Shown piece after piece: positions 1-15,030 of a DNA stretch of 15,030 nt. The notes beneath the pieces were generated by a model, which worked only from the letters and a program-made list of their open reading frames with translations, had not been told where the DNA came from and searched no databases. The stretch's first letter is position 1, and every line of letters begins with the position of its first letter. The position numbers and the translations under genes were made by a program. The DNA is from an uncultured delta proteobacterium (GTDB taxonomy: Bacteria; Desulfobacterota; Desulfuromonadia; Desulfuromonadales; BM103): positions 1 through 15,030 of the forward strand of contig CAVQRZ010000020.1 of assembly GCA_963715335.1 (NCBI GenBank), read 5' to 3'.

Positions 1-47
1 ACTAGGTCCGCGGGACGAGGTACGGGGTACGAGGAAAACATTAAATA

Positions 48-80
48 AAGCGAGGGCAGATAGTCAATCTGCCCTCGCTT
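48..80. terminator. Intrinsic terminator hairpin downstream of the efflux operon, possibly bidirectional
   Basis: Perfect 14-bp inverted repeat AAGCGAGGGCAGAT-agtca-ATCTGCCCTCGCTT with T-rich tails on both strands, about 55 nt past the TolC-family stop. Confidence 0.85.
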
Positions 81-134
81 GTTATTGTTCTGATCAGTTT
101 TTTCAGGACTTTGATTATCGTGTCCCCCGTCCCG

Positions 135-1405
135 TTATTCCGCCCGTGTCGGTCCGCGTTCCAGGACCCGTTCGATCGCTGCCGCTGAAAGGTGGAGGTC
201 GTATAGCGCCTTGACTTTTTCGTTGCGGGCGCGGGTCAGGTACTCCTGAGCGTCGAGCAGGTCCACTGTGGTCGCGATGTTGGCCCGATAACGGTTCTCG
301 TTGACGCGATAATTCTCTTCGGCCTGGACCGCCGCGGCTGAGGCCGTCGCCAGGTTCTCCCCTGACACGCGAAAGGCTTCGAGGGCCGTCTGTAGCTGCA
401 GCGTCAGACGATCTTCAGTGGCTTTGATTTCCTGTTGCCGGGCACGGATTTCATGTTCGCGCCCGACCAGCTCATAGCGGGTGTCGAATCCGCTGAAAAG
501 AGTCCAGGTCGCCCGTACGATCGCCCTTGATTCGCTGTCGTAGTCGGCATCGCCGGGCTCCGGCAGGGCATCGTTGCCAAATCGGTCGTAGCTTAACACC
601 AGGTCGATATCAGGCAGGAGATCGCCGCGTACAGCCTTGCGTCCGGCCACTTCGGCTGCGAGCAGGCTGTTGAGGAATTTCAGCTCGCTGCGGTTTACAA
701 ACATCTCCTGGTGTAGTCCATCCATTGGCCCGGGCAGGGCCGGTTCCAGAGAGAGGTCGGTAACTTCCTCATCTTGGCCGACGGGTCTGCCCAGCGCCAG
801 GGCCAGGGCCTGGCGAGAGATTTCATGGCGGCCTACGGCGATTGACAGGAGTTGTCGGGCGGTCGCCAAGACCACTTCCACTCGCAGCAGGTCGTTGCGG
901 GCGACCAGCCCCTGCTCCAGCCGCAGCTGTGTGTCGTGGCGTTGCTGTTCGAGCAGCTCCACGCTCTTCCTCTCGGTTGCCACGGTGCGACTGGTCCGCA
1001 GCACTTCAATATATGCTTGCTTGGTTTCGAGGACGATGTCTGCGACGGTGCTGCGGCGCTGATAATTGGCAGCCGAAGCCCGGTGTTTGGCTTCATGCAA
1101 ACGAAACCAGTCGCTGCCGCCGTTGAAAAGGTTGTATCCGGCGCTGGTCTCGGCCAGGCTCAGCTCCCGGCTGTTCAGACTCGGATCGCGATCTCCGCGC
1201 CAGTAGCTGTAATTTGCGTCTATGCGCGGCCAGAAGGGGGCTCTCGCCTGATCAGCACGGGCCCCGGCCGCATTTTCGAGCTCCACGAACTGGTGGACCC
1301 TCGGGTTGTATCGCAGGGCGTCGTTCACGGCCTCGTTAATCGTCAGGGCCTGGACCGGGTTATGACTTAAGGTCAGCAATGCCAGCCACAGGATCAGCAG
1401 GACTC

Positions 1406-1409
<4 letters not shown>
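135..1409 (-). CDS. TolC-family outer membrane efflux protein
   Basis: 424 aa with signal peptide (MRVLLILWLALLTLS...VQA), two OEP-type repeats (YNLFNGG / WTLFSGF; RYRANIATTVDLLDAQ), ATGA overlap with the RND permease stop and a GAGGAG RBS. Confidence 0.93.
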
Positions 1410-4540
<3,131 letters not shown>

Positions 4541-4545
4541 GTCGT

Positions 4546-5613
4546 TTACTCCGTGCGCACGGGCTGGCTGTCATGAATGCGTTCATTGCCCTTCACGACC
4601 ACCATCTGGCCAGCTTCAACACCTTCACCGATGATGCCGGCCAGGGTCCCTGAATGTCCGGTAATCTCGACCGGAACCATGCGGGCCTGGTTATTGTCAT
4701 TGACGAAGATCACGTTCTTGCCAAAACTGTTGATGATGGCATCGCGCGGCACCAGCAGGCTGTCCCTGGCTGCCGCGGTCGGTAGCGTAACCTGCGCCTC
4801 CATTCCTTCGATCAACGACTTGCTGCCCGGGAGGGTGAACTTTGCGATAAAGGTGCGGGTGCTGATGTCGCCACGTGGAATAATGGCTGTGAACTTCCCC
4901 GGCCTCTCCTGGCCGGCAACTTTCAGTGTGACCGCTTCTCCGAGAGTCAGGAAGGGGATGATGCTGGACGGTATGTCGACGTGCACCACAAAACTGCGGT
5001 TGTCGGCGAGGGAGACTACAGCTCCGCCGGCTTCCACCCACTCGCCGGCCTCCACGAGGCTATCGATGACAAGACCGTCGAAGGGCGCGCGCACGGTCTT
5101 CTTCTTCTGCTCCAAAAGCAGCCGGTCGAGACGTGCTTCGAGTACGGTGGAGAGTTTTCTCAGGCTGTTGAGCCTGGTCCCATAAGACTCGAATTCAGAG
5201 ATGGCAACGGATTTCTGCTCATTTAAAGCGGCGAACCGGTTGTAGTCCTTCTGCGCCTGTTCTACGTCAATCTGGTTTTGCTCGAAAGTCGCTCGCGTAC
5301 CGGTAATTTCTGTTTGCAGCAAGTCATCATCAAGCTGTACCAGGCGGTCGCCGGCTTTCACTGAGTCACCGTCATTGACGTAAGCCTGCAGGACAATGCC
5401 ATCCACTTCCGCGGCAACTTCAGCCGACCGGGCAAAGTAGAGCGTGCCGACAAAATTGGCGGTCGGTTTTGACGAGCCACTGACGATTGCTGTTGTGGTG
5501 ACCAGCATGGGGGGTGGCCCGTCGGCCGCCTTTTTCTGCTCTTCGGCGGTCGCGGTGTTGACTGCCAGTAACAGTGCTGTCGCCGTAAAAAACATACAGA
5601 GTGCTCTATTCAT
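4546..5613 (-). CDS. RND efflux periplasmic adaptor (membrane fusion protein), 355 aa
   Basis: Lipoyl-like and hairpin motifs (EVDGIVLQAYVNDGDSVKAGDRLVQLD, VRAPFDG). Start moved from 5790 to ATG 5613 (MNRALCMFF..., signal peptide), which has a GGAG RBS and an 8-nt overlap with the tetR stop. Confidence 0.93.
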   Translation of the reverse strand: MNRALCMFFTATALLLAVNTATAEEQKKAADGPPPMLVTTTAIVSGSSKPTANFVGTLYFARSAEVAAEVDGIVLQAYVNDGDSVKAGDRLVQLDDDLLQTEITGTRATFEQNQIDVEQAQKDYNRFAALNEQKSVAISEFESYGTRLNSLRKLSTVLEARLDRLLLEQKKKTVRAPFDGLVIDSLVEAGEWVEAGGAVVSLADNRSFVVHVDIPSSIIPFLTLGEAVTLKVAGQERPGKFTAIIPRGDISTRTFIAKFTLPGSKSLIEGMEAQVTLPTAAARDSLLVPRDAIINSFGKNVIFVNDNNQARMVPVEITGHSGTLAGIIGEGVEAGQMVVVKGNERIHDSQPVRTE

Positions 5614-6250
5614 GTTGATTGCTCCCGAGTCCGTGCAGGGAAAACTGCGTAATATGTTCAATGATATCTTCAATAAAAGGCTGGTTTTGTTCCGGGCTGT
5701 GGATGCCGCGTAAAATGTCTCTGCTCCGGACGAAGTGCAGGACCTGGCCGGTGATGCTGCTGACGCAGAAAGAAGCGCGTTTCTCGCCAAGCCCAGGGCT
5801 TGCTTTAAGGATTAGTTCCTTGAACGCCCGATTGATCGGGACAATCAGGCGTGAGGCGATCAGGTCGCCGGTGACGGCATCCGGGCCCATTTCCCGGTAG
5901 ATGGTCTGCATGAGCCGGTCGCTGTCCGGTGAGGAGAGACGAGAGTCAAAAAAACTGCGGATATATGCGCGTAAAATTTCCTCAAGCGTCGCGGGGGGCT
6001 GTTGCTGGTCGAGTTTTTCAAGCAGGCTGAGTTTTTCTATGGTAATGCCGTCCAGAATGCGCACAAGAACTTCACGGTACAGGCCGGTCTTGTCGCTGAA
6101 GTGATAGTTGACAGAGGCCACATTGGCGCCGCTTGTCCTGGTGATCTGACGAATGCTGACGCTTTCGAAGCCGTGGGCAAGGAAGAGTCTCTCCGCACAT
6201 GCCAGCAGGGCCGCTCTGGTATCTTTGTTGTTTAATGGCGATTTTTTCAT
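5606..6250 (-). CDS. TetR/AcrR family transcriptional regulator (probably CecR/YbiH-like C-terminal domain)
   Basis: N-terminal HTH ALLACAERLFLAHGFESVSIRQITRTSGANVASVNYHFSDKTGLY; first gene of the efflux operon. Confidence 0.93.
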   Translation of the reverse strand: MKKSPLNNKDTRAALLACAERLFLAHGFESVSIRQITRTSGANVASVNYHFSDKTGLYREVLVRILDGITIEKLSLLEKLDQQQPPATLEEILRAYIRSFFDSRLSSPDSDRLMQTIYREMGPDAVTGDLIASRLIVPINRAFKELILKASPGLGEKRASFCVSSITGQVLHFVRSRDILRGIHSPEQNQPFIEDIIEHITQFSLHGLGSNQHE

Positions 6251-6252
6251 GT

Positions 6253-6288
6253 AAACGTCGTTTTAAACATTGTTTGAAAAATTGTCAA
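6253..6288 (-). promoter_or_regulatory. Sigma70-type promoter of the tetR-RND operon overlapped by two tandem palindromic operator candidates
   Basis: Minus strand TTGACA (6288-6283), 17 nt, TAAAAC (6265-6260), ending 9 nt before the ATG. Palindromes AAACAATGTTT (6275-6265) and AAACGACGTTT (6263-6253). Confidence 0.75.
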
Positions 6289-6392
6289 GAACGAACCTGC
6301 GCAATCGAGTCGGCAAAAGCTGGGGTGCTGGCAAGGATCGGAAGGGGTAAGTTGTTGTCAAATCAGAAAGAAGGCTGACCTAGAAAATAAGC

Positions 6393-7181
6393 TTAGACCC
6401 TGGCCGGCATCTCTTGCCGGTTTCGGCCGTTATCGACCGGGGCCTGATGCCAGTCGCCGTAAAGATACTGCAAAATGGGCGTTGCCGCCAAGCCGGCAGT
6501 TTCAGTGCGCAGAATTCTCGGTCCCAGGTGTACGGCCCGAAACCCGGCCGCCGCAATGTCATCGATTTCCTGGTCGGTAAAACCACCTTCCGGTCCGATC
6601 AGAAGCCTGACCCCGGTGGGCCTCTCCCCGGGCAAGGCCTCTGCAAGGGGGACCGACCCCGCCTCCCACAGCACGAGCTTGAGGTCACTTGTCTGCTCTT
6701 CGATAACTGCAGACAGCCTTTGCATCGACCGGATCTGAGGGAGAAAACTGCGCCGGGACTGCCTTGCGGCTTCACTCGCTATGCGTAGCCAGCGCTGTTG
6801 ACGCTTGTCCATGCGGGCCTCGTTGACTTGCGCTACTGAGTATGCAGTCTCGACGGGCTGAAAGCAGTGCACCCCGAGTTCGGTGCCCTTTTGCAGGACG
6901 AGGTCAAACTTGTCGCCTTTCGGCATGGCCTGGATAAGGGTAATCGGTAAACTGCTGTCTTCGTCCCGCCAGCGTCGAACCACCCGGGCGGACGCTTGAC
7001 GTTTGCTGATACTCTCCAGCTCGACTTCGCAACAGAGTCCCCGGCCGTCGAGCAGGGTCAGGACACTGCCGAGCCTGGTACGCAGAACGTTGTGCAGGTG
7101 GTGATGCGGGTCGCCGCTGATGTCCACCTGGTCGCCTTGCAGAGTTTCAGGCGGAACGAAAAAACGCAGCGGATCACTCAT
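6393..7181 (-). CDS. rsmE: 16S rRNA m3U1498 methyltransferase RsmE, 262 aa
   Basis: Motifs HHLHNVLR, KGDKFDLVLQKGTELGV, EAARQSRR, LIGPEGGF and LGPRILRTETA. Start moved to ATG 7181 (MSDPLRFF), overlapping the prmA stop by 8 nt. Confidence 0.96.
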   Translation of the reverse strand: MSDPLRFFVPPETLQGDQVDISGDPHHHLHNVLRTRLGSVLTLLDGRGLCCEVELESISKRQASARVVRRWRDEDSSLPITLIQAMPKGDKFDLVLQKGTELGVHCFQPVETAYSVAQVNEARMDKRQQRWLRIASEAARQSRRSFLPQIRSMQRLSAVIEEQTSDLKLVLWEAGSVPLAEALPGERPTGVRLLIGPEGGFTDQEIDDIAAAGFRAVHLGPRILRTETAGLAATPILQYLYGDWHQAPVDNGRNRQEMPARV

Positions 7182-8097
7182 GGCTCTGGTAGACGATACA
7201 GGTCCACTCGTCACGGTGGTTGCTGGCGAGCAATGCCAGGGGGAAACCGGCAAAGCCTTTGATAACCGCCTGCTCCTGCTCGATCAGGATTCCGGAGAGG
7301 ACCAGCCGCCCTGATCCGGGAGTAAGGTGCGCGACCAGTTGGTCGGCGAGACGCAGGTTCTCGGCCGCGAGGATGTTGGCAAGCACCAGGTCGTAGGTCC
7401 CGGTAATCTCCTCCAGTGTCGCGTCGGTAACTGAAACCAGGTGGTCGAGCCGGTTGCTCGAGATGTTGTGCCGGGCGACCTGGCATGCCTCGTTGTCGAT
7501 GTCAGTGGCAATCACCTGTCTGGCGCCGAGTGCGGCCCCCGCCATGGCCAGGATTCCCGAGCCTGTGCCGACATCCAGAATGTTTTTGGGTGGTTGCTCG
7601 CTTGCAAAATGCTCGGCCAGCGCGTCCAGGCAAAGGCTGGTGGTGGCATGGGTGCCGGTACCAAAGGCCTGGCCCGGGTCAAGGGTGAGGACCGCTTCGT
7701 CGCCGGTGGCTTGCCAGTCTATCCATGAGGGGCGAATGACGAGACGGCGGCCAACCCTGAATGGTGGGAAATGCTGTTGCCAGTCACTCGCCCAGTCCTG
7801 GTCGGCCAGTTCGCGGGATTCGAGGCGGGTCTTGGCAAGCGCTGGATGAACGACCGCGAGTTCGGAGAGAATCTGCTGTACGGCTGCCAGCAGCGCATCC
7901 ATCTGGTCCGGGTAGATGAAGTAAGCTTTCATGACCGGATCGTTGACCAGGCTCTCCGGTGCCGGCACAACAAACGTGTCCAGCTGTGTTTCGGCGGCAG
8001 TGACACCGGTACAGCCAATTTCCATCAGGTTTTGTGAAACCAGGTCGACGGCTTCGTCCGGCACAGCGAGGCGTATCTCCAGCCATTTGCTTGTCAT
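7174..8097 (-). CDS. prmA: Ribosomal protein L11 methyltransferase PrmA
   Basis: Motifs DW...WQQHFPP, LDPGQAFGTGTHATT, ILDVGTGSGILA, DLVLANILA and LVLSGIL; adjacent to rsmE as is usual. Confidence 0.97.
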   Translation of the reverse strand: MTSKWLEIRLAVPDEAVDLVSQNLMEIGCTGVTAAETQLDTFVVPAPESLVNDPVMKAYFIYPDQMDALLAAVQQILSELAVVHPALAKTRLESRELADQDWASDWQQHFPPFRVGRRLVIRPSWIDWQATGDEAVLTLDPGQAFGTGTHATTSLCLDALAEHFASEQPPKNILDVGTGSGILAMAGAALGARQVIATDIDNEACQVARHNISSNRLDHLVSVTDATLEEITGTYDLVLANILAAENLRLADQLVAHLTPGSGRLVLSGILIEQEQAVIKGFAGFPLALLASNHRDEWTCIVYQSHE

Positions 8098-8292
8098 GAT
8101 GGTTGTTTAGCGAAGTTTCCGGGGCATTGCAACAGAAATTCTTGACCAGCTTGAGGAGGGTCTGAAATAATGGCCTGTAACTTAATGAGACAAAGTGCGC
8201 ATATCGCATATAATAACCCTTCTGTGATACATTAAGCTGCCAGAAGTTACTGATTTGCCAAGTAAAGTCGAGGTTTTCCCTGCTTTTGGTGT

Positions 8293-8320
8293 TTGCTTTT
8301 TCATTAGACTCTGTTAGACT
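8293..8320 (+). promoter_or_regulatory. Candidate promoter for the dikinase regulator gene
   Basis: TTGCTT (8293-8298), 16 nt, TAGACT (8315-8320) with an extended -10 TG, 27 nt upstream of the ATG; GAGG RBS at 8337-8340. Confidence 0.4.
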
Positions 8321-8347
8321 TCACCGGTGTTTTCATGAGGATTTTCA

Positions 8348-9157
8348 ATGTCTGCTGCTGCCCAAGTTATCTATCTTCTTTCTGACGCGACCGGCGAAAC
8401 TGCAGAAAAAATGGTCATGGCAGCGCTAACGCAGTTTCGTGACAGGCCGGTCCGTTTGAAACGGATTAACAACGTCCGGACCAAGAACCAGGTGTACGAG
8501 ACCCTGGACGAAGCGCTCGACAAGCAGGCCCTTGTGGTTTTCACTATTGTCAACCGCGACCTGGCCCAACTGGTCCATGACGAGTGCGACAGCCTCGGTC
8601 TGGTCAACATTGACCTGCTGACTCCGCTGTTGATGAAAGTGGCGCACTGTCTTGGGCGGTCACCGAAAGAGACCCCCGGCCTGTTGCATGGGATCGATGA
8701 GGCCTATTTCAGACGTATCGAGGCGATTGAATTTACCGTCAAGCATGATGACGGGCAGGAACCCCGCAATCTTTACCAGGCTGACATCGTTCTGGTCGGG
8801 ATTTCCCGTACCAGTAAAACACCACTCTCCATCTACCTGGCCCACAGGGGGTGGAAGGTGGCAAACGTGCCCCTGGTGAAAGGCATAGATCCGCCGTCGC
8901 AACTTTTTGAAGTAGATCCGAAGAGGATTGCGGCCCTTGTTATCGACCCACAGAGACTGTTTGAAGTGCGCGCCTCGCGGCTGCGGAATCTTGGCCAGGA
9001 CCCGAAGGCGGCTTACGCCGATTATGAAGAGATCGAGGAGGAGTTGAAGCACGCGAAGAGATTCTTCCGCCAGCACCCATGGGTGGTGATCGATGTCTCC
9101 AGCAAGGCTATCGAGGAGACGGCCAATGAGGTGCTGGTTCGCCTTGGACTCAAATAG
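8348..9157 (+). CDS. ppsR: Pyruvate,phosphate/water dikinase regulatory protein (kinase/pyrophosphorylase, DUF299)
   Basis: Motifs [55 protein letters not shown] and [12 protein letters not shown]. Confidence 0.95.
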
Positions 9158-9265
9158 TTGCCGGTTTGTGTGCTGCGCGTACCGGTTTTGATGATGATCC
9201 CCTGACAATCGACGCTCGGACCATTTTTACGAAGATAGCCGTTCATTTAGAAAAGGAGAAACCTC

Positions 9266-9937
9266 ATGCACATTCTGGTTGTGGAAGATGAGAAGAAAGT
9301 TGCCAGCTTTATTCAACGCGGGCTTGAAGGTGAAGGCTATACCGTTGATGTCGCCAATGATGGTGAGTCGGGAGTCGAACTTGGTTCCAAGAACAACTAC
9401 GATCTGATCCTCATGGACATCATGCTGCCCAAGATGGACGGCCTCGAGGCGGTCAAGGCTCTGCGTGCCAATGGTGTGGTCTCACCCGTTCTCTGCCTGA
9501 CGGCCAAGGACACGGTCGACGATATCGTCGCCGGCCTGGAAGTCGGCAGCGACGACTACCTGACCAAGCCTTTCGCCTTTGCCGAACTTCTGGCCCGGGT
9601 CCGGGCTCTGGCCCGCCGGGGCACCCAGGAGCGCGGGGCGGAAGTCACCTATGCTGATTTGCGGCTTGATCCGGTTGCCCACAAGGTCTGGCGTGGAGAA
9701 AACGAGATTGACCTGACCGCAAAGGAATATGCCCTGCTCGAATTTTTCATGCGCAATCCGGAAACGACATTGACGCGGACGATGATCGCTGAGCATGTCT
9801 GGGATTATACGTTTGATTCGTTCACCAATATCATTGACGTCTATGTCAATTATCTGCGCAAGAAGGTTGACCGCGACTTCACCAAGAAACTGATTCATAC
9901 CGTTCGCGGAATCGGTTACGTCCTCAAGGAGGACTAG
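9266..9937 (+). CDS. OmpR-family response regulator (CusR/CzcR-like)
   Basis: Receiver domain (ILVVEDE, LMDIMLP, LTAK, DDYLTKPF) plus winged helix (LTAKEYALL, IIDVYVNYLRKK, IHTVRGIGY); AAGGAG RBS. Confidence 0.96.
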   Translation: MHILVVEDEKKVASFIQRGLEGEGYTVDVANDGESGVELGSKNNYDLILMDIMLPKMDGLEAVKALRANGVVSPVLCLTAKDTVDDIVAGLEVGSDDYLTKPFAFAELLARVRALARRGTQERGAEVTYADLRLDPVAHKVWRGENEIDLTAKEYALLEFFMRNPETTLTRTMIAEHVWDYTFDSFTNIIDVYVNYLRKKVDRDFTKKLIHTVRGIGYVLKED

Positions 9938-9938
9938 C

Positions 9939-11399
9939 TTGGCCATTTCACCTTTGGGGTCGATCCGGGTCCGCCTGACGTTCTGGTATGCAATGACGCT
10001 GGCTGTCATCCTGGCAGTCAGCGCTCTGTTTTCTTATCATTATTTTTCTCACAATCTGAGAGAACAGGTGGACCGTCAGGCTCGCGAGATCGCCCGCATC
10101 ATTGACCAGCACTACGTTGACACCTTGTCCGAGGCTGTTCATTCAGGGGATTGTCAGGGCCTGCAGACGCTGGCCCACAATTACAACTGGGATGCTTTTC
10201 TGGTCTTGCGCGATGCCGGCCTGCAGGAAATCTGCAGAACAGAGAATTTGATGGAGCGTGACCTGCCGTTCGGGCCGGTGGCCCGCCAGCAGGTCCGATG
10301 GCTGAACGAGCACCTGGAAACAATCGCGCTGGAGCCCAACCGGCAGATGAGGCTCCTCTCCTATCCCTTGTTGGAAAAGGGTAAGCTGATCGGCGTGGCC
10401 CAGATTGGCCAGGAACTCGGCCCCCTGCAGCAGACCATCGAAGAGCTGCGCGTGATCTACCTGGTGGTCGGACCCTTTGCAATTTTCTGGCTCTGTCTCG
10501 GCTGCTGGCTGTTGGCCGAACGCACGATCGCGCCGATCATCGAGGTGACCGAAGCGGCCCAGGGTATAACCGCAGACAACCTGACCCGCCGCCTGCCTTT
10601 CGGCAATCATCAGGATGAGCTGTCGCAGATGGTTGCCTGCCTGAACCAGATGCTTGATCGTCTTGAAAAATCTTTCCGGCGGATCCGGCAATTCTCCGGT
10701 GATGCCTCCCATGAGCTGCGCACGCCTCTCACCATCTTGCGGGGTGAAACCGAAGTGACCCTGCGCTGGGCGAAAACGACCGACGAGTTCCGCGATATGC
10801 TGCGTTCCAACATGGAAGAAATCGATCGCATGGAGCGGATCATTGAAAGCCTGCTGACGCTGGCCAAGAGTGAAGTCGGTGAATTGACGCTGGAAATGAA
10901 GCAGCTCAGCCTCAGCGACATGGTCCAGGAGCTGTACCTGCAGAGCCAGCTCCTCTGCGAAACCAAGCAGATCGAAGTTAGTATGGGCCTGAAGGTCGAG
11001 GAGGAGGTCCGGATCCGCGGTGACGAACTGCGTTTACGGCAGATGTTCCTCAACCTGATCTCCAACGCCATCAAATATACCCCTGAAGGCGGTGAGCTGA
11101 AGATCGTTCTGGCCCAGGAAGATGATTTTGCCGTGGTCGATATCGTCGACACGGGAATCGGCATGCACGCCGAGCATCTGTCCCATATCTTTGACCGATT
11201 CTACCGGGTCGACAAGGCGCGCAACCGTATGGACGGAGGCACCGGTCTTGGCCTGGCGATTGTCAAGTGGATCGCCGAGGCCCACGGTGGAAGCATCTCG
11301 GTCACGTCCGAGGTTGGCAAGGGCAGCTCATTCTCGGTACGCCTGCCTCTAAAGGGACCGGAAGAAGGCAAACACCCGAAAACGACCATTCTGGATTAA
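9939..11399 (+). CDS. Membrane sensor histidine kinase with HAMP domain (CusS/CzcS-like architecture)
   Basis: Two TM segments, HAMP, H-box DASHELRTPL, N-box NLISNAIKYT, DTGIG, IFDRFYR and GGTGLGLAI. TTG start 1 nt after the regulator stop, with an AAGGAGGA RBS. Confidence 0.95.
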   Translation: MAISPLGSIRVRLTFWYAMTLAVILAVSALFSYHYFSHNLREQVDRQAREIARIIDQHYVDTLSEAVHSGDCQGLQTLAHNYNWDAFLVLRDAGLQEICRTENLMERDLPFGPVARQQVRWLNEHLETIALEPNRQMRLLSYPLLEKGKLIGVAQIGQELGPLQQTIEELRVIYLVVGPFAIFWLCLGCWLLAERTIAPIIEVTEAAQGITADNLTRRLPFGNHQDELSQMVACLNQMLDRLEKSFRRIRQFSGDASHELRTPLTILRGETEVTLRWAKTTDEFRDMLRSNMEEIDRMERIIESLLTLAKSEVGELTLEMKQLSLSDMVQELYLQSQLLCETKQIEVSMGLKVEEEVRIRGDELRLRQMFLNLISNAIKYTPEGGELKIVLAQEDDFAVVDIVDTGIGMHAEHLSHIFDRFYRVDKARNRMDGGTGLGLAIVKWIAEAHGGSISVTSEVGKGSSFSVRLPLKGPEEGKHPKTTILD

Positions 11400-11447
11400 C
11401 CTTTCACAACTGCACATTCCATCAGTTGATTACTGTGCTGCTGACGA

Positions 11448-11476
11448 TTGACAGTGCGCACGGCGGTTATTACATT
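11448..11476 (+). promoter_or_regulatory. Sigma70-type promoter of degP
   Basis: TTGACA (11448-11453), 17 nt, TACATT (11471-11476), followed by a GGAGGA RBS at 11495-11500. Confidence 0.65.
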
Positions 11477-11504
11477 TGTTATTATAACCACGATGGAGGA
11501 CATC

Positions 11505-12896
11505 ATGAACAACCTGTTACGCTCGAAACACTTCCTGCTCATATCCCTTTTGATATTCGGCTGGGCTGTCACCGTCTCGGCACAGCCGCCGGATTTTGTC
11601 ACCCTGGCAGAGCAGCTCAAACCCGCAGTCGTCAACATCGGCACCGCCAAGACCGTAAAGCCCAGGGCGCCGATGCCCCCCGGCCCGCATGGCCCCGGTG
11701 GTGACATGTTCGATGAATTTTTCGAACGGTTCTTCCGCAACTCGCCACAGTCGCCGCGCAAGGAGAGATCCCTCGGCTCCGGGTTCATCATCTCTGAAGA
11801 CGGCTATATCCTGACCAATGACCACGTGGTCGATGGCGCAGATGAAATCAAGGTCAAGCTCTCGGACGGCCGGGAATTCACCGGCGAGATTCGCGGACTG
11901 GACCCGAAACTGGACCTGGCGCTGATCAAGATCGATGCCGGCGAAAACCTGCCTGTCGCAAAGCTTGGCGACAGCGAGGCAATCAAGGTTGGTGAATGGG
12001 TTATGGCGATCGGCAATCCCTTTGGCCTGGAGCAGACCGTCACGGTCGGTATTGTCTCAGCGAAGGGCCGCGTCATAGGGGCCGGGCCCTACGATGATTT
12101 TATCCAGACGGACGCATCGATCAATCCTGGCAACTCGGGCGGCCCGCTCTTCAATGTGCAGGGTGAGGTCATCGGCATCAACACTGCGATTGTTGCCCAG
12201 GGTCAGGGGATCGGTTTCGCCATCCCGGTCAACATGGCCAAGCAGATCATCCCCCAGTTGCGTGACGAAGGTCATGTGACCCGCGGCTGGCTCGGTGTGA
12301 CCGTCCAGGCGCTGAACAAGGAGCTCGCCGATTCATTTGGCCTGGACAGCACTCATGGCGCCCTGGTCAACGAAGTCATCAATGATTCCCCTGCCGACAA
12401 GGCCGGCCTGAAGCGGGGCGATATTATCGTCGAATATGATGGCAAGCAGGTCGGTGAGCTCAATGACCTGCCGCGACTGGTTGCTGCAACCCCGGTCGGC
12501 GAAACGGTCCAGGTCAAGGTCTTCCGTGACGGCAAGGAACGCACGGTCAAGGTCCAGATCGGCAGGCTCGACGACGGCAAGGCGGAGCTGGCTGCCGATG
12601 ACGGGGAAAGCGGCGGGGCTCTCGGTCTCACGGTCGCGAATGTGACCCCGGAGCTGGTCGAGCGCTACAGCCTGGAGAGCGACAAGGGCGTTCTGATCAC
12701 CAGGATCGACCCGGAAGGCCCGGCTGCCGAAGCCAACCTGAGAGTCGGTGACCTGGTTGTCGAGGCTGACGGCAAGGAAGTCGGTACGGTCAAGGAGTTT
12801 GAAGGATTGGTTGACAAGATGGCCGCCGGCAAGGTGTTGCGGCTGCTGGTCCAGCGCAGGGCGACCCTGCTCTACACGACGGTGACGTTGAAATAG
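11505..12896 (+). CDS. degP: DegP/DegQ (HtrA) periplasmic serine endoprotease with two PDZ domains, 463 aa
   Basis: Signal peptide, catalytic triad motifs TNDHVV / DLALIK / INPGNSGGPL, and two PDZ domains (RGWLGV, ALGLTV). Start moved to ATG 11505 after GGAGGA. DegP versus DegQ is not resolved. Confidence 0.94.
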   Translation: MNNLLRSKHFLLISLLIFGWAVTVSAQPPDFVTLAEQLKPAVVNIGTAKTVKPRAPMPPGPHGPGGDMFDEFFERFFRNSPQSPRKERSLGSGFIISEDGYILTNDHVVDGADEIKVKLSDGREFTGEIRGLDPKLDLALIKIDAGENLPVAKLGDSEAIKVGEWVMAIGNPFGLEQTVTVGIVSAKGRVIGAGPYDDFIQTDASINPGNSGGPLFNVQGEVIGINTAIVAQGQGIGFAIPVNMAKQIIPQLRDEGHVTRGWLGVTVQALNKELADSFGLDSTHGALVNEVINDSPADKAGLKRGDIIVEYDGKQVGELNDLPRLVAATPVGETVQVKVFRDGKERTVKVQIGRLDDGKAELAADDGESGGALGLTVANVTPELVERYSLESDKGVLITRIDPEGPAAEANLRVGDLVVEADGKEVGTVKEFEGLVDKMAAGKVLRLLVQRRATLLYTTVTLK

Positions 12897-12920
12897 TTGA
12901 TACTGAAATATGTTTTGTCG

Positions 12921-12954
12921 AGCCCCTGCTGCGTTTTGCGGCGGGGGCTTTTTT
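12921..12954 (+). terminator. Intrinsic terminator after degP
   Basis: 12-bp stem AGCCCCTGCTGC-gtttt-GCGGCGGGGGCT with two G-U pairs that work only in plus-strand RNA, followed by a T run. Confidence 0.88.
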
Positions 12955-13000
12955 GTAACGCAAAGATGCAAAGGGGAAGACAAAGGGAAGGGGAAAGAGG

Positions 13001-13035
13001 GAAGAAAAGAGCCCGGCTGGATGGACCAGCCGGGC
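13001..13035 (-). terminator. Intrinsic terminator after the beta-barrel gene
   Basis: Perfect 10-bp stem GCCCGGCTGG-tccat-CCAGCCGGGC followed by TCTTTTCTTC on the minus strand, 37 nt after the TAA at 13073. Confidence 0.82.
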
Positions 13036-13072
13036 ATGACATAAAGAGGCAAATCTTTATCAGCTTGGTTGT

Positions 13073-15030
13073 TTAAAAGCGGTAACCGAATCCGAGGTAA
13101 CCGTAGTAGGCGTCACCGTCTTCGTCACCATAGACATACATTTGATCACTTTCAAATACGTCATAGGTGAATGATGCGGATGGCATACATCCTTTCGGTG
13201 AAGTCGTAGCTGCCACCAACTGTGAGCTGGTACTGTTCATACGACAGATCAGAGTAGCCGTCGATCTTGTTGTTGAGCTGCCAGTTGTCGTAATTGACGG
13301 AGCGTATGCTCCTGGGGGCTCACTGCGGTCTCAGCCAAAGGTGTCGTGGTGTTGTTTTCACCATACACACGGGCTCTTTCGGTGAACTTCCAGTCCCAGC
13401 TGCTTTCCGCGTTGTTGTAGGTGAAGCCAGCATTCAGCTTGAGTTTTTCTGTTGCCTGATAATCTACATTAAGTGCCACGGTGTGAACGTCAGAGTTGTA
13501 TTCGCTGTCATTACAGATCGAGCCAAACTGGCTCGACGAGATGTCGTTCGCTCAGCCATGGTACCAGCCGACACACATCTGGTTCTCCGTCTTCTGCTTG
13601 TTGAATGTGTAGGCCATGGTCAGGTTCAGCTTGTTGTTGGGTGCATAGTAGAGAGAAGCGCCGGGAACATAAGTGTCTTGTTCGTAATTGGTCTCGTCGT
13701 TTTCTTCCATGCGGACCCGCGCAAACAGGGTTGCTGACATGTTGGGGCTCGCGACCCAGGTTGCGTTCACTTTGGCTTCATGAACCTTTTCAGGCAGGTT
13801 GCTTGCTTCGAGCTGGCGGTTTGGGTAAACATCTGTCCAGTACCAGATCGCAGCAGGGGAGCCGAAATCAGTGACGTCGTAATACCAGAGCCCTGAACCG
13901 AGAGGATCTTGGGTGGCCAAGGGTGAATCGCCTTGAGCGATGCCTACGTGACCACTTAAGGGATCACTGATGTCCTGGTATTGGTAGCTGACCATGCCCG
14001 ACCATTGGTTGTTCAGGCGCGATTTAACGGAGACCTTGAAGGTGTTGGTCTCTGTCTCGCCGAGCGCTTCGTCTTCGCGATCGACTTCTTCATACTCGTA
14101 GCCGAAACGAAGGGTTGTCGCTTTGGCAAGTCGGTAAACCGCATCGAAGCCAAGCTCAGTGACTTCACGAGCTTCCGCGGGGTTCCATTCATCGCTGTCT
14201 GCGTAGGGCCAATCACCGTTAACCTCAGGCAGTGCGCGCCGGGAAATAGATCTCTCTGTCGCTGGTGTCGATCTCGTAAGTACTGCCGCGTAAGGACAGG
14301 CGGAGGTTGTCGCCAATCTTGGTTGAAACCTTACCACCGAACGATTCGTACTCAGTCTCCAGGTCGTTTCCAGCCCAGCAGGTCGTAAGAATCCTGGGTG
14401 GCGCTTTTTGAGCTTTCGATGTCGGACTTTACGTAGCTCGCGGTGATGCTGGTAGAGTTGGACAGATCAGCTCTTGCACTCAGACTGTGACTGTCTTTAT
14501 CCGAATCCGGAGTGCGTCCGAAAGGCAGGAAGTCATTGTCATAGTTTAACTGGTCTGCATTACCGTGGTTTGCATCCAGGTAGTAACGTATCGGTGCAGC
14601 ACTGTCTTCGCTGAATGAACGGTTCAAGTATTCATAGTCAACTGTTACCGGACCAAATTTACCGGTTGCGCCGAAAGTGAAGTCTTCAGTCCGTTCATCG
14701 ATGTCCTTGCCTGCGGCGGAAACGTCGGCAGGAGTCACATTTGCTCAGGCTGATGGCCTGTTCCATGCCTTCACGAGTTTCTACTCGAATGCCAGCATGA
14801 AGAGCGACATTCGGTAGATCAGGGATGACCAGAGTTGCTTCGCCGTTATATTCGCGGCGCGTGACAATGTAGTCGTTTGCCATCTCATTGGCATAGGCCG
14901 TTGCAGCATTGTACTCGGTGTAGACGTTGTCGCCAGCGATGCTTGTTGCTAGCCCTGCTGCACTCAAATCAGCATACGTTTTGTCTGTAGTAATACGTGG
15001 TTGACCACCAGCAACGTCATCGCGGGCAGT
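13073..15030 (-). CDS. Outer-membrane beta-barrel (MtrB/PioB-like) protein with a CxxCH motif and a predicted selenocysteine; 5'-truncated by the window and interrupted by five apparent +1 frameshifts. Resembles the GSU2204-family CxxCH-containing (seleno)proteins
   Basis: Manual translation joins the fragments into one protein: ...QAISLSKCDSC[H]VSAAGKDID...ETEYESFGGKVSTKIGDNLRLSLRG...LRFGYEYEEVDR...QMCVGWYHG-U-ANDISSSQFGSICNDSEYNSDVHTVALNVDYQATEKLKLNAGFTY...YSDLSYEQYQLTVGGSYDF...DAYYGYLGFGYRF*. It has alternating amphipathic strands and a C-terminal Y-x-F. 1958 nt minus 5 equals 651 codons exactly. The family name is from memory, not a search. Confidence 0.8.
13518..13554 (-). promoter_or_regulatory. 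In-frame UGA plus bacterial SECIS-like hairpin
   Basis: UGA at 13554-13552, 15 nt, then a perfect 8-bp stem UCGAGCCA-GUU-UGGCUCGA (13536-13518). The loop G lies 23 nt after the UGA and is followed by U. The frame stays open and barrel-like downstream. Confidence 0.8.

What the first reader, a model, noticed from the sequence alone, without database searches (positions are those of the whole stretch)
13073..15030. Hidden large outer-membrane barrel combining a heme-c motif and selenocysteine: a candidate redox-active porin-cytochrome conduit
Seen: the small minus-strand ORFs, plus segments the track misses (about 14374-14234, 13298-13182 and 13180-13073), reassemble into one protein of over 650 aa. 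It is acidic and Tyr-rich, ends in ...YLGFGYRF*, and has its own terminator. Established: a terminal aromatic beta-signal marks BAM-inserted barrels, and MtrB/PioB-type porins sheath multiheme cytochromes for extracellular electron transfer. Inference: a porin with its own CxxCH and Sec would be an active redox or metal(loid)-handling component rather than a passive sheath, and a multiheme cytochrome gene is predicted nearby, most likely upstream beyond 15030. I recall an NCBI family named GSU2204 CXXCH-containing (seleno)protein that may cover this, but I know of no functional characterisation.
Basis: partly seen in the sequence, partly recalled or inferred. Interest (0 to 1): 0.85.

Follow-up and report, generated by a model that had tools for sequence, protein, structure and literature searches.

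The report
Frameshifted heme-selenocysteine porin gene (OmcL)
The scattered fragments are one damaged copy of an already catalogued gene (OmcL/GSU2204) for a predicted outer-membrane barrel with a heme-binding motif and a likely selenocysteine, which probably wraps a ten-heme cytochrome to carry electrons across the membrane; the family is known but untested, and the breaks here are likely assembly errors.

Summary
Seven minus-strand pieces (15030-13073) align as one protein to residues 128-787 of an intact ortholog: 648 residues, 66% identity, six one-base frameshifts, and the only stop on the path is TGA 13554-13552. One break lies in the His codon, so CxxCH is literal only in the sibling copy. 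The gene belongs to NCBIfam NF041027 (GSU2204/OmcL). UGA, a covarying SECIS hairpin, Cys-bearing homologs and selA/B/C/D support selenocysteine. A model of the ortholog is an MtrB-like 26-strand barrel, with CxxCH and Sec on inferred outside loops on opposite walls. The family is listed as a predicted selenoprotein and as the 'OmcKL' conduit; my searches found no test of the heme or the Sec. This scan found the family before on other DNA. Likely mechanism: the barrel's heme is an eleventh, surface heme that replaces MtrC, and Sec works at or near it (untested). The frameshifts are probably assembly errors (about 75%). New member of a known kind.

The parts
14728..15030 (-). Piece 1 of the omcL-type barrel gene (ortholog residues 128-227); runs off the contig end; ends in the two Cys of the heme motif (codons 14739-14737, 14730-14728)
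   Evidence: NF041027 positions 124-189, E 4e-19
14724..14739 (-). CxxCH heme-c motif, broken by a one-base shift in the His codon as assembled
   Evidence: C224, C227, H228 present in 85 of 85 aligned homologs; CDTCH in the C19 sibling
14376..14723 (-). Piece 2 (ortholog residues about 229-345)
   Evidence: NF041027 191-309, E 4e-35
14232..14371 (-). Piece 3 (about 346-392), missed by ORF callers
   Evidence: NF041027 306-351, E 1e-9
13321..14229 (-). Piece 4 (about 393-705), read through the in-frame UGA
   Evidence: NF041027 363-580, E 1e-73
13552..13554 (-). In-frame TGA, predicted selenocysteine (MCVGWYHG-U-AND)
   Evidence: TGA in 53 of 53 related loci that reach the site, of 60; Cys at this column in 4 of 26 full-length homologs
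13518..13536 (-). Bacterial SECIS-like hairpin: 7-bp stem, loop AGUUU, 22 nt after the UGA
   Evidence: 95% of 140 cells paired, 3 of 7 pairs change on both sides, slid controls 22-56%; fits the consensus model quoted in PMC13188914; folding energy alone is not unusual, z -0.74
13513..13575 (-). Two Cys flanking the Sec (codons 13575-13573 and 13515-13513); lineage-restricted
   Evidence: C621 in 47 of 83 rows, C641 in 12 of 26; both absent in a Sec-bearing clade
13073..13320 (-). Pieces 5-7 (about 706-787) ending in the aromatic beta-signal YLGFGYRF and TAA
13011..13035 (-). Intrinsic-terminator-like hairpin; a plus-strand one at 12920-12950 follows the converging htrA/degP gene
5607..14886 (.). 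Stretch that duplicates G000:C19:70612-79890 (second haplotype of the same locus); the barrel gene is the most diverged part
   Evidence: 92.3% overall; 94.8-100% in 250-nt bins from 6500 to 13000, 61-83% across the barrel gene

Best explanation
The fragments are one frameshifted copy of a GSU2204/OmcL-family gene, predicted to encode a 26-strand MtrB-like outer-membrane barrel that likely sheathes the decaheme OmcK and likely carries an eleventh heme plus a selenocysteine on its outer loops, where they would form the surface electron-exchange site in place of a separate MtrC. Shown: family membership, UGA and SECIS conservation, CxxCH conservation, the upstream decaheme, the absence of a third cytochrome gene in nearly all loci. 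Predicted: the fold. Inferred: heme c is attached in the periplasm before BAM insertion; OmcK (a lipoprotein) enters from the periplasmic side as MtrA does; the loop-4 hairpin bends over the pore to set the barrel heme next to heme 10; Sec on loop 11 reaches in from the opposite wall as distal ligand or adjacent nucleophile, so that the site could act on soft substrates such as polysulfide or metal(loid) species. The last five strands and the beta-signal lie after the UGA, so assembly would depend on selenium. The six one-base shifts in this copy are likely assembly errors at the thin end of a second-haplotype contig.
For: Family and fold; model pLDDT 85, pTM 0.83; best PDB match MtrB 6R2Q_B, E 3e-27, TM 0.77. 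Partner: decaheme over the NF041028 cut-off at the sibling locus, best solved relative MtrA 6R2Q_A, E 2.5e-42; multiheme ORF upstream in 18 of 18 and 20 of 20 loci; lipobox-like motif in 68 of 71. No third cytochrome: same-strand multiheme ORF downstream in 0 of 25 and 1 of 20 loci. Sec goes with the heme motif, not with the flanking Cys: 86 of 115 long 50%-identity representatives end at the Gly before the Sec site and 85 of these have CxxCH (TGA not seen, no DNA); G627 in 82 of 84 rows against C621 in 47 of 83; 12 loci of a distant clade keep G-U and CxxCH without either flanking Cys. Precedent for a heme/Sec site: MccSep (PMC13510729, passages). In MtrAB, MtrC heme C5 sits 8 A from heme A10 at the pore mouth (PMC7198977, passages). 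Assembly error: no nonsense codon, 79 of 80 invariant columns kept, 166 of 362 conserved codons differ synonymously from the sibling, many duplicated contigs, sibling also has a shift, 3 of 7 background shifts lie within about 2 kb of a contig end.
Against: No coordinates were returned, so the heme-Sec distance was not measured; the Sec loop is the least certain part of the model (pLDDT under 50 at 629-636), and the two loops are about 14 strands apart. His115 is kept in 83 of 85 rows and could be the distal ligand instead. Homologs exist with CxxCH but neither Sec nor Cys (3 of 20 loci; a whole Sec-free sister family), so the heme does not need Sec. The genome has no MccSep match over cut-off, and the only expression data seen concern iron minerals (PMC4070692) and ANME partners (PMC10553843), not sulfur. 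The barrel scores 34-43 bits on TIGR03509, far under 240. On the breaks: 6 in 2 kb is about 55 times the background of 7 in 131 kb, the other end of the contig is intact, and no read data cover the breaks properly.
Confidence: 0.5

Rival explanations
1. The barrel heme is a plain bis-His relay (His228 plus His115 or His119) that only extends the wire; Sec is a separate add-on on the far wall (gate, metal or protein-thiol contact, or a selenium-dependent assembly switch).
For: H115 in 83 of 85 rows and 110 of 115 representatives; the HxxDH motif and a CX2CH/CX3CH motif persist in the Sec-free sister barrels (8 CX2CH, 6 CX3CH, 1 CX5CH, 1 broken, of 16 loci); the loops are on opposite walls.
Against: H115 is also kept in both motif-less members seen (P0181, P0260), so it need not be a ligand; it ends strand 5 near the membrane while CxxCH tops a 22-residue strand. 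A pure switch does not explain Cys replacements or the invariant Gly before U.
Confidence: 0.3
2. Sec forms a selenenyl-sulfide redox couple with the flanking Cys of its own loop (C-x6-U-x12-C), independent of the heme.
For: Both Cys are invariant in 16 of 16 close orthologs and present in the window.
Against: Both are missing in 12 Sec-bearing loci; C621 in only 47 of 83 rows and shifted in register, C641 in 12 of 26. The two Cys face each other at the loop base, which fits a structural disulfide (inference).
Confidence: 0.12
3. This particular copy is a real pseudogene of a strain that has lost the conduit (independent of what the family does).
For: Six frameshifts in 2 kb, about 55 times the genome background; intact ORFs at the other contig end.
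Against: All lesions are single-base indels with no nonsense codon and no loss of invariant residues apart from the broken His codon; it lies at a contig end; the sibling copy and a paralog are also shifted; the same gene is split in 5 of 60 other loci.
Confidence: 0.25
4. The UGA is a true stop and the gene is split in two.
For: Databases hold the product cut at the UGA (119 of 120 top hits end in WYHG).
Against: The frame stays open 136-165 codons to the beta-signal, a covarying SECIS follows, Cys homologs exist, no TAA or TAG was seen at the site in 53 of 53 loci, and selA, selB, selD and tRNA-Sec are present.
Confidence: 0.03

Closest known systems
OmcL/GSU2204 with OmcK/GSU2203 of Geobacter sulfurreducens (NCBIfam NF041027, NF041028, regulator NF041036); 'OmcKL conduit' of ANME-partner bacteria
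   Same: Same HMM families, same two-gene order, divergent LysR gene at the sibling locus; listed as a predicted selenoprotein (PMC13188914, PMC9312934, table rows).
   Different: Nothing at family level; this copy lacks its N-terminus and has six frameshifts. PMC10553843 (passages) calls OmcK extracellular and notes a missing periplasmic partner; my reading is that OmcK is the MtrA-type threaded wire and that the missing part is the outer cytochrome.
MtrAB(C) of Shewanella (PDB 6R2Q); TIGR03509 MtrB/PioB
   Same: 26-strand fold (TM 0.77), acidic surface, MtrA-like decaheme with ten invariant distal His.
   Different: 13% identity, under the TIGR03509 cut-off; own CxxCH and Sec; decaheme has a lipobox; no MtrC-like gene in 0 of 25 and 1 of 20 loci.
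Cyc2 fused cytochrome-porin (10.1101/228056, passages)
   Same: One c-type heme motif within an outer-membrane barrel chain.
   Different: Cyc2 has 16 predicted strands and an N-terminal cytochrome domain; here 26 strands, the motif sits at a hairpin tip, there is a Sec, and a decaheme partner.
MccSep/ExtKL polysulfide reductase (PMC13510729, passages)
   Same: c-type heme and Sec in one protein, Sec after a Gly, same bacterial group.
   Different: Soluble periplasmic pentaheme with His/Cys heme; no homology shown; no match over cut-off in this genome.

Membership tests
GSU2204 family (NF041027) | HMM score over 350 bits | tested here: met
   Collinear pieces sum to about 477 bits, none over the cut-off alone (best 249); the sibling copy on C19 scores 645.
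GSU2204 family (NF041027) | Single CxxCH | tested here: inconclusive
   Both Cys present, His codon broken by a one-base shift in this copy; intact in the sibling and 85 of 85 homolog rows.
GSU2204 family (NF041027) | GSU2203-type decaheme directly upstream | tested here: met
   Not visible on this contig (ends at 15030); met at the duplicate locus C19, 435 bits against 325.
Bacterial selenoprotein | Conserved in-frame UGA with open frame beyond, and Cys homologs | tested here: met
Bacterial selenoprotein | SECIS: G in the first two loop positions, 16-37 nt from the UGA | tested here: met
   Loop AGUUU at 22 nt, covariation.
Bacterial selenoprotein | selA, selB, selC, selD in the genome | tested here: met
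Bacterial selenoprotein | Selenium in the protein | not testable with these tools
   Needs 75Se or MS.
MtrB/PioB (TIGR03509) | HMM score over 240 bits | tested here: not met
   43 bits for the window piece, 34 for the intact ortholog.
MtrB/PioB (TIGR03509) | 26-strand barrel fold | tested here: met
   Model of the ortholog P0002, not of the window copy; strands counted by me from DSSP; Foldseek best hit MtrB.
MtrB/PioB (TIGR03509) | Decaheme bound inside the barrel | not tested
   No complex job sent: a textbook pair, and the full pair exceeds the size limit.
Cyc2 | 16 strands, N-terminal cytochrome domain | tested here: not met
   26 strands, motif at residue 224 between strands 7 and 8.
MccSep/ExtKL (NF040886) | Five CxxCH, HMM match | tested here: not met
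   One motif; no hit of the window.

The most novel reading that the evidence does not exclude
OmcL is an outer-membrane barrel that is itself an enzyme: a c-type heme on loop 4 and a selenocysteine on loop 11 meet over the pore to give a His/Sec-ligated or Sec-assisted heme at the cell surface, fed by a threaded decaheme, which reduces or oxidises sulfur or metal(loid) substrates outside the cell and makes the conduit selenium-dependent in sulfur reducers and ANME-partner bacteria.
Probability: 0.3. Interest if true: 0.8.

Novelty: new member of a known kind. Interest (0 to 1): 0.3.

Why it matters
The window copy adds little: it is a damaged duplicate of a catalogued gene. The family matters because it is common (match in 55 of 401 genomes of the phylum), is reported as more highly expressed than the main conduit in one ANME partner (PMC10553843, passage), and is stored cut at the UGA in databases, so its last five strands are usually missed. 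If heme and Sec meet, it would be a surface catalytic site built into the porin and would explain why OmcKL has only two genes. G. sulfurreducens makes this testable. A practical lesson: hypervariable barrel genes at contig ends collect false frameshifts.

Tried and rejected
Reads: no run holds half the words of the stretch. Contigs of 4 of 22 runs cover only short bits and nothing from 13680 to 15030; one 151-nt contig covers 13183-13301 without a gap but does not bridge a break. Undecided, no habitat inferred. DNA-level indel counts between duplicate contigs rise with divergence (0.22 to 7.7 per kb), but blastn gaps at low identity are partly alignment noise, so I did not use them as proof. 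The residue before CxxCH is K or H in 85 of 85 Sec-type representatives and M in 7 Sec-less ones; I considered it a ligand for a partner heme, but the decaheme has ten invariant distal His of its own (71 of 71), so rejected; the M forms may be one clade. I first read the sister barrels as CxxxC disulfides; they are CX3CH. A second Sec at about 14228 was rejected. SECIS folding energy alone was uninformative. No complex prediction was sent. PMC12013261 (Haft and Tolstoy 2025) is not held; PMC12977616 hits were the OMCL algorithm. Supplements were not read and may hold omcKL expression or fitness data.

Full report
Observation. The stretch 15030-13073 on the minus strand holds no long ORF, but its pieces hit one family, NCBIfam NF041027 'GSU2204 family CXXCH-containing (seleno)protein', in model order (7 pieces scanned; 4 strong hits, 1 weak, 2 none, the model ending at the Sec site). 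A frame-aware alignment against an intact ortholog (P0002, 787 aa) covers residues 128-787 with 648 aligned residues at 65.7% identity, six one-base shifts (about 14726, 14372, 14230, 13320, 13300, 13181) and a single stop, TGA 13554-13552; 79 of 80 invariant columns are kept, the exception being the His of CxxCH, whose codon holds a break. The product is acidic and Tyr-rich, ends in GYRF, and is followed by a terminator-like hairpin. The window is the whole contig C20, so the first 127 residues and the upstream gene are not on it.

Context. C20:5607-14886 duplicates C19:70612-79890 at 92%. Flanks are 94.8-100% identical per 250 nt; the barrel gene is only 61-83%. The assembly has many such duplicate contigs and 6.87% contamination, so C20 is most simply a second strain haplotype (inference). 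On C19 the gene is open for 626 codons with CDTCH, then UGA, with one shift later. Directly upstream lie a GSU2203-family decaheme (435 bits, cut-off 325) and, divergently, a multiheme-associated LysR regulator (NF041036).

Are the breaks real? For error: only single-base indels, no nonsense codon, 166 of 362 conserved codons differ synonymously from the sibling, contig-end position, shifts also in the sibling and in a paralog, and a short or broken frame in 5 of 60 other loci. Against: the rate is about 3 per kb against 0.053 per kb in 108 conserved genes (7 shifts in 131 kb, best copy counted), and the other end of C20 is clean. Public contigs from 4 of 22 runs do not bridge the breaks. I put error at about 75%.

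Selenocysteine. Of 60 related loci, 53 reach the site and all 53 have TGA; 7 end before it. In 20 loci picked by hand from the 73 matches of a 401-genome phylum sample, chosen to include those without TGA, 15 have TGA, 2 Cys and 3 neither; all 20 have CxxCH and an upstream decaheme. Cys stands at the site in 4 of 26 full-length distant proteins. A 7-bp hairpin with loop AGUUU begins 16 nt after the UGA; in 20 sequences 95% of cells pair and 3 of 7 pairs change on both sides, against 22-56% for slid controls (related sequences, so not a probability). selA, selB, selD and tRNA-Sec are in the genome.

Fold. A model of the ortholog from 90 sequences (pLDDT 85, pTM 0.83) is a barrel in which I count 26 strands; MtrB is the best match by fold (E 3e-27, TM 0.77) and by profile (E 9e-5). 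By strand alternation (inference) CxxCH lies at the tip of the long strand 7-8 hairpin and Sec in the 22-residue loop between strands 21 and 22, both outside, on roughly opposite walls. The Sec loop is poorly predicted and no coordinates were available, so their distance is unknown.

Mechanism. The decaheme is closest to MtrA, has ten invariant distal His and mostly a lipobox. A further multiheme gene follows in 0 of 25 and 1 of 20 loci. In MtrABC the outer cytochrome places a heme 8 A from heme A10 at the pore mouth (PMC7198977, passages). I infer that the barrel's own heme takes that place. What is conserved with the Sec is the Gly before it and CxxCH, not the flanking Cys, which favours a role at the heme, as in MccSep where Sec lies beside a His/Cys heme (PMC13510729, passages). 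The main rival is a bis-His heme using His115 (83 of 85 rows), supported by Sec-free relatives that keep the heme motif. Substrate and direction of electron flow are not shown.

Known status. The family is a table row among predicted selenoproteins in PMC13188914 and PMC9312934 (rows seen; both cite Zhang and Gladyshev 2008, which I saw only as a reference). GSU2203 and GSU2204 rise together on hematite and magnetite (PMC4070692, table passage). PMC10553843 (passages) names the pair OmcKL, a putative conduit in ANME partners, and remarks on its missing third gene; the word selenocysteine does not occur in its main text. Searches for GSU2204, GSU2203, omcL, OmcKL and selenocysteine with MtrB/porin or heme ligand found no test of the heme or Sec; the library lacks most subscription papers, and supplements were not read. 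Earlier notes of this scan describe the same family in at least six other genomes; they are not independent support, though one gave me the name OmcL.

Verdict. Real feature, correctly read, known family, damaged copy. New member of a known kind; interest 0.3. The open and testable question, what heme and Sec do on the barrel, belongs to the family and is better studied in an intact member.

Noticed in passing
window 13073-14900 against G000:C19:78075-79900: The two haplotypes are 95-100% identical in flanking genes but only 61-83% in the barrel gene, except around the UGA and SECIS: looks like exchange of whole alleles of a surface protein, possibly under phage pressure.
   Followed up: partly
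G000:C19:130000-133250 (L046) and L031-L045: A Sec-free sister cassette: decaheme with nine CxxCH plus one CX3CH, and a barrel with CX2CH, CX3CH or CX5CH at the same hairpin, followed by a periplasmic-binding-like gene and a chemotaxis-receptor-like gene (named from sequence look, not scanned). May be a redox-sensing conduit.
   Followed up: partly
window 9266-12896: Response regulator, heavy-metal-type sensor kinase and HtrA/DegP protease converge on the barrel gene; the same neighbours occur in L087 but not in most other loci.
   Followed up: no
window 135-6250: TetR-like regulator, RND efflux adaptor, permease and TolC-like gene; 1-5600 has no match on C19, so the two haplotypes carry different efflux modules here.
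   Followed up: no
L132 (G075:C1:521200-531500): The one locus of 20 with multiheme genes (12, 12 and 7 CxxCH) right after the Sec barrel.
   Followed up: no
L142, L143, L147; P0174, P0180, P0211, P0217, P0240, P0254, P0255: Members with neither Sec nor Cys have Met just before CxxCH where Sec-type members have Lys or His.
   Followed up: partly
L082 (8474-11792): Genes that look like selA and selB lie directly downstream of the Sec barrel in this locus (not scanned).
   Followed up: no
G000:C6:149754-154149 and C40:6614-7981: selA-selB-selD cluster; selA is present twice, the C6 copy with a stop inside the match and the C40 copy intact; selD has its own in-frame TGA.
   Followed up: no
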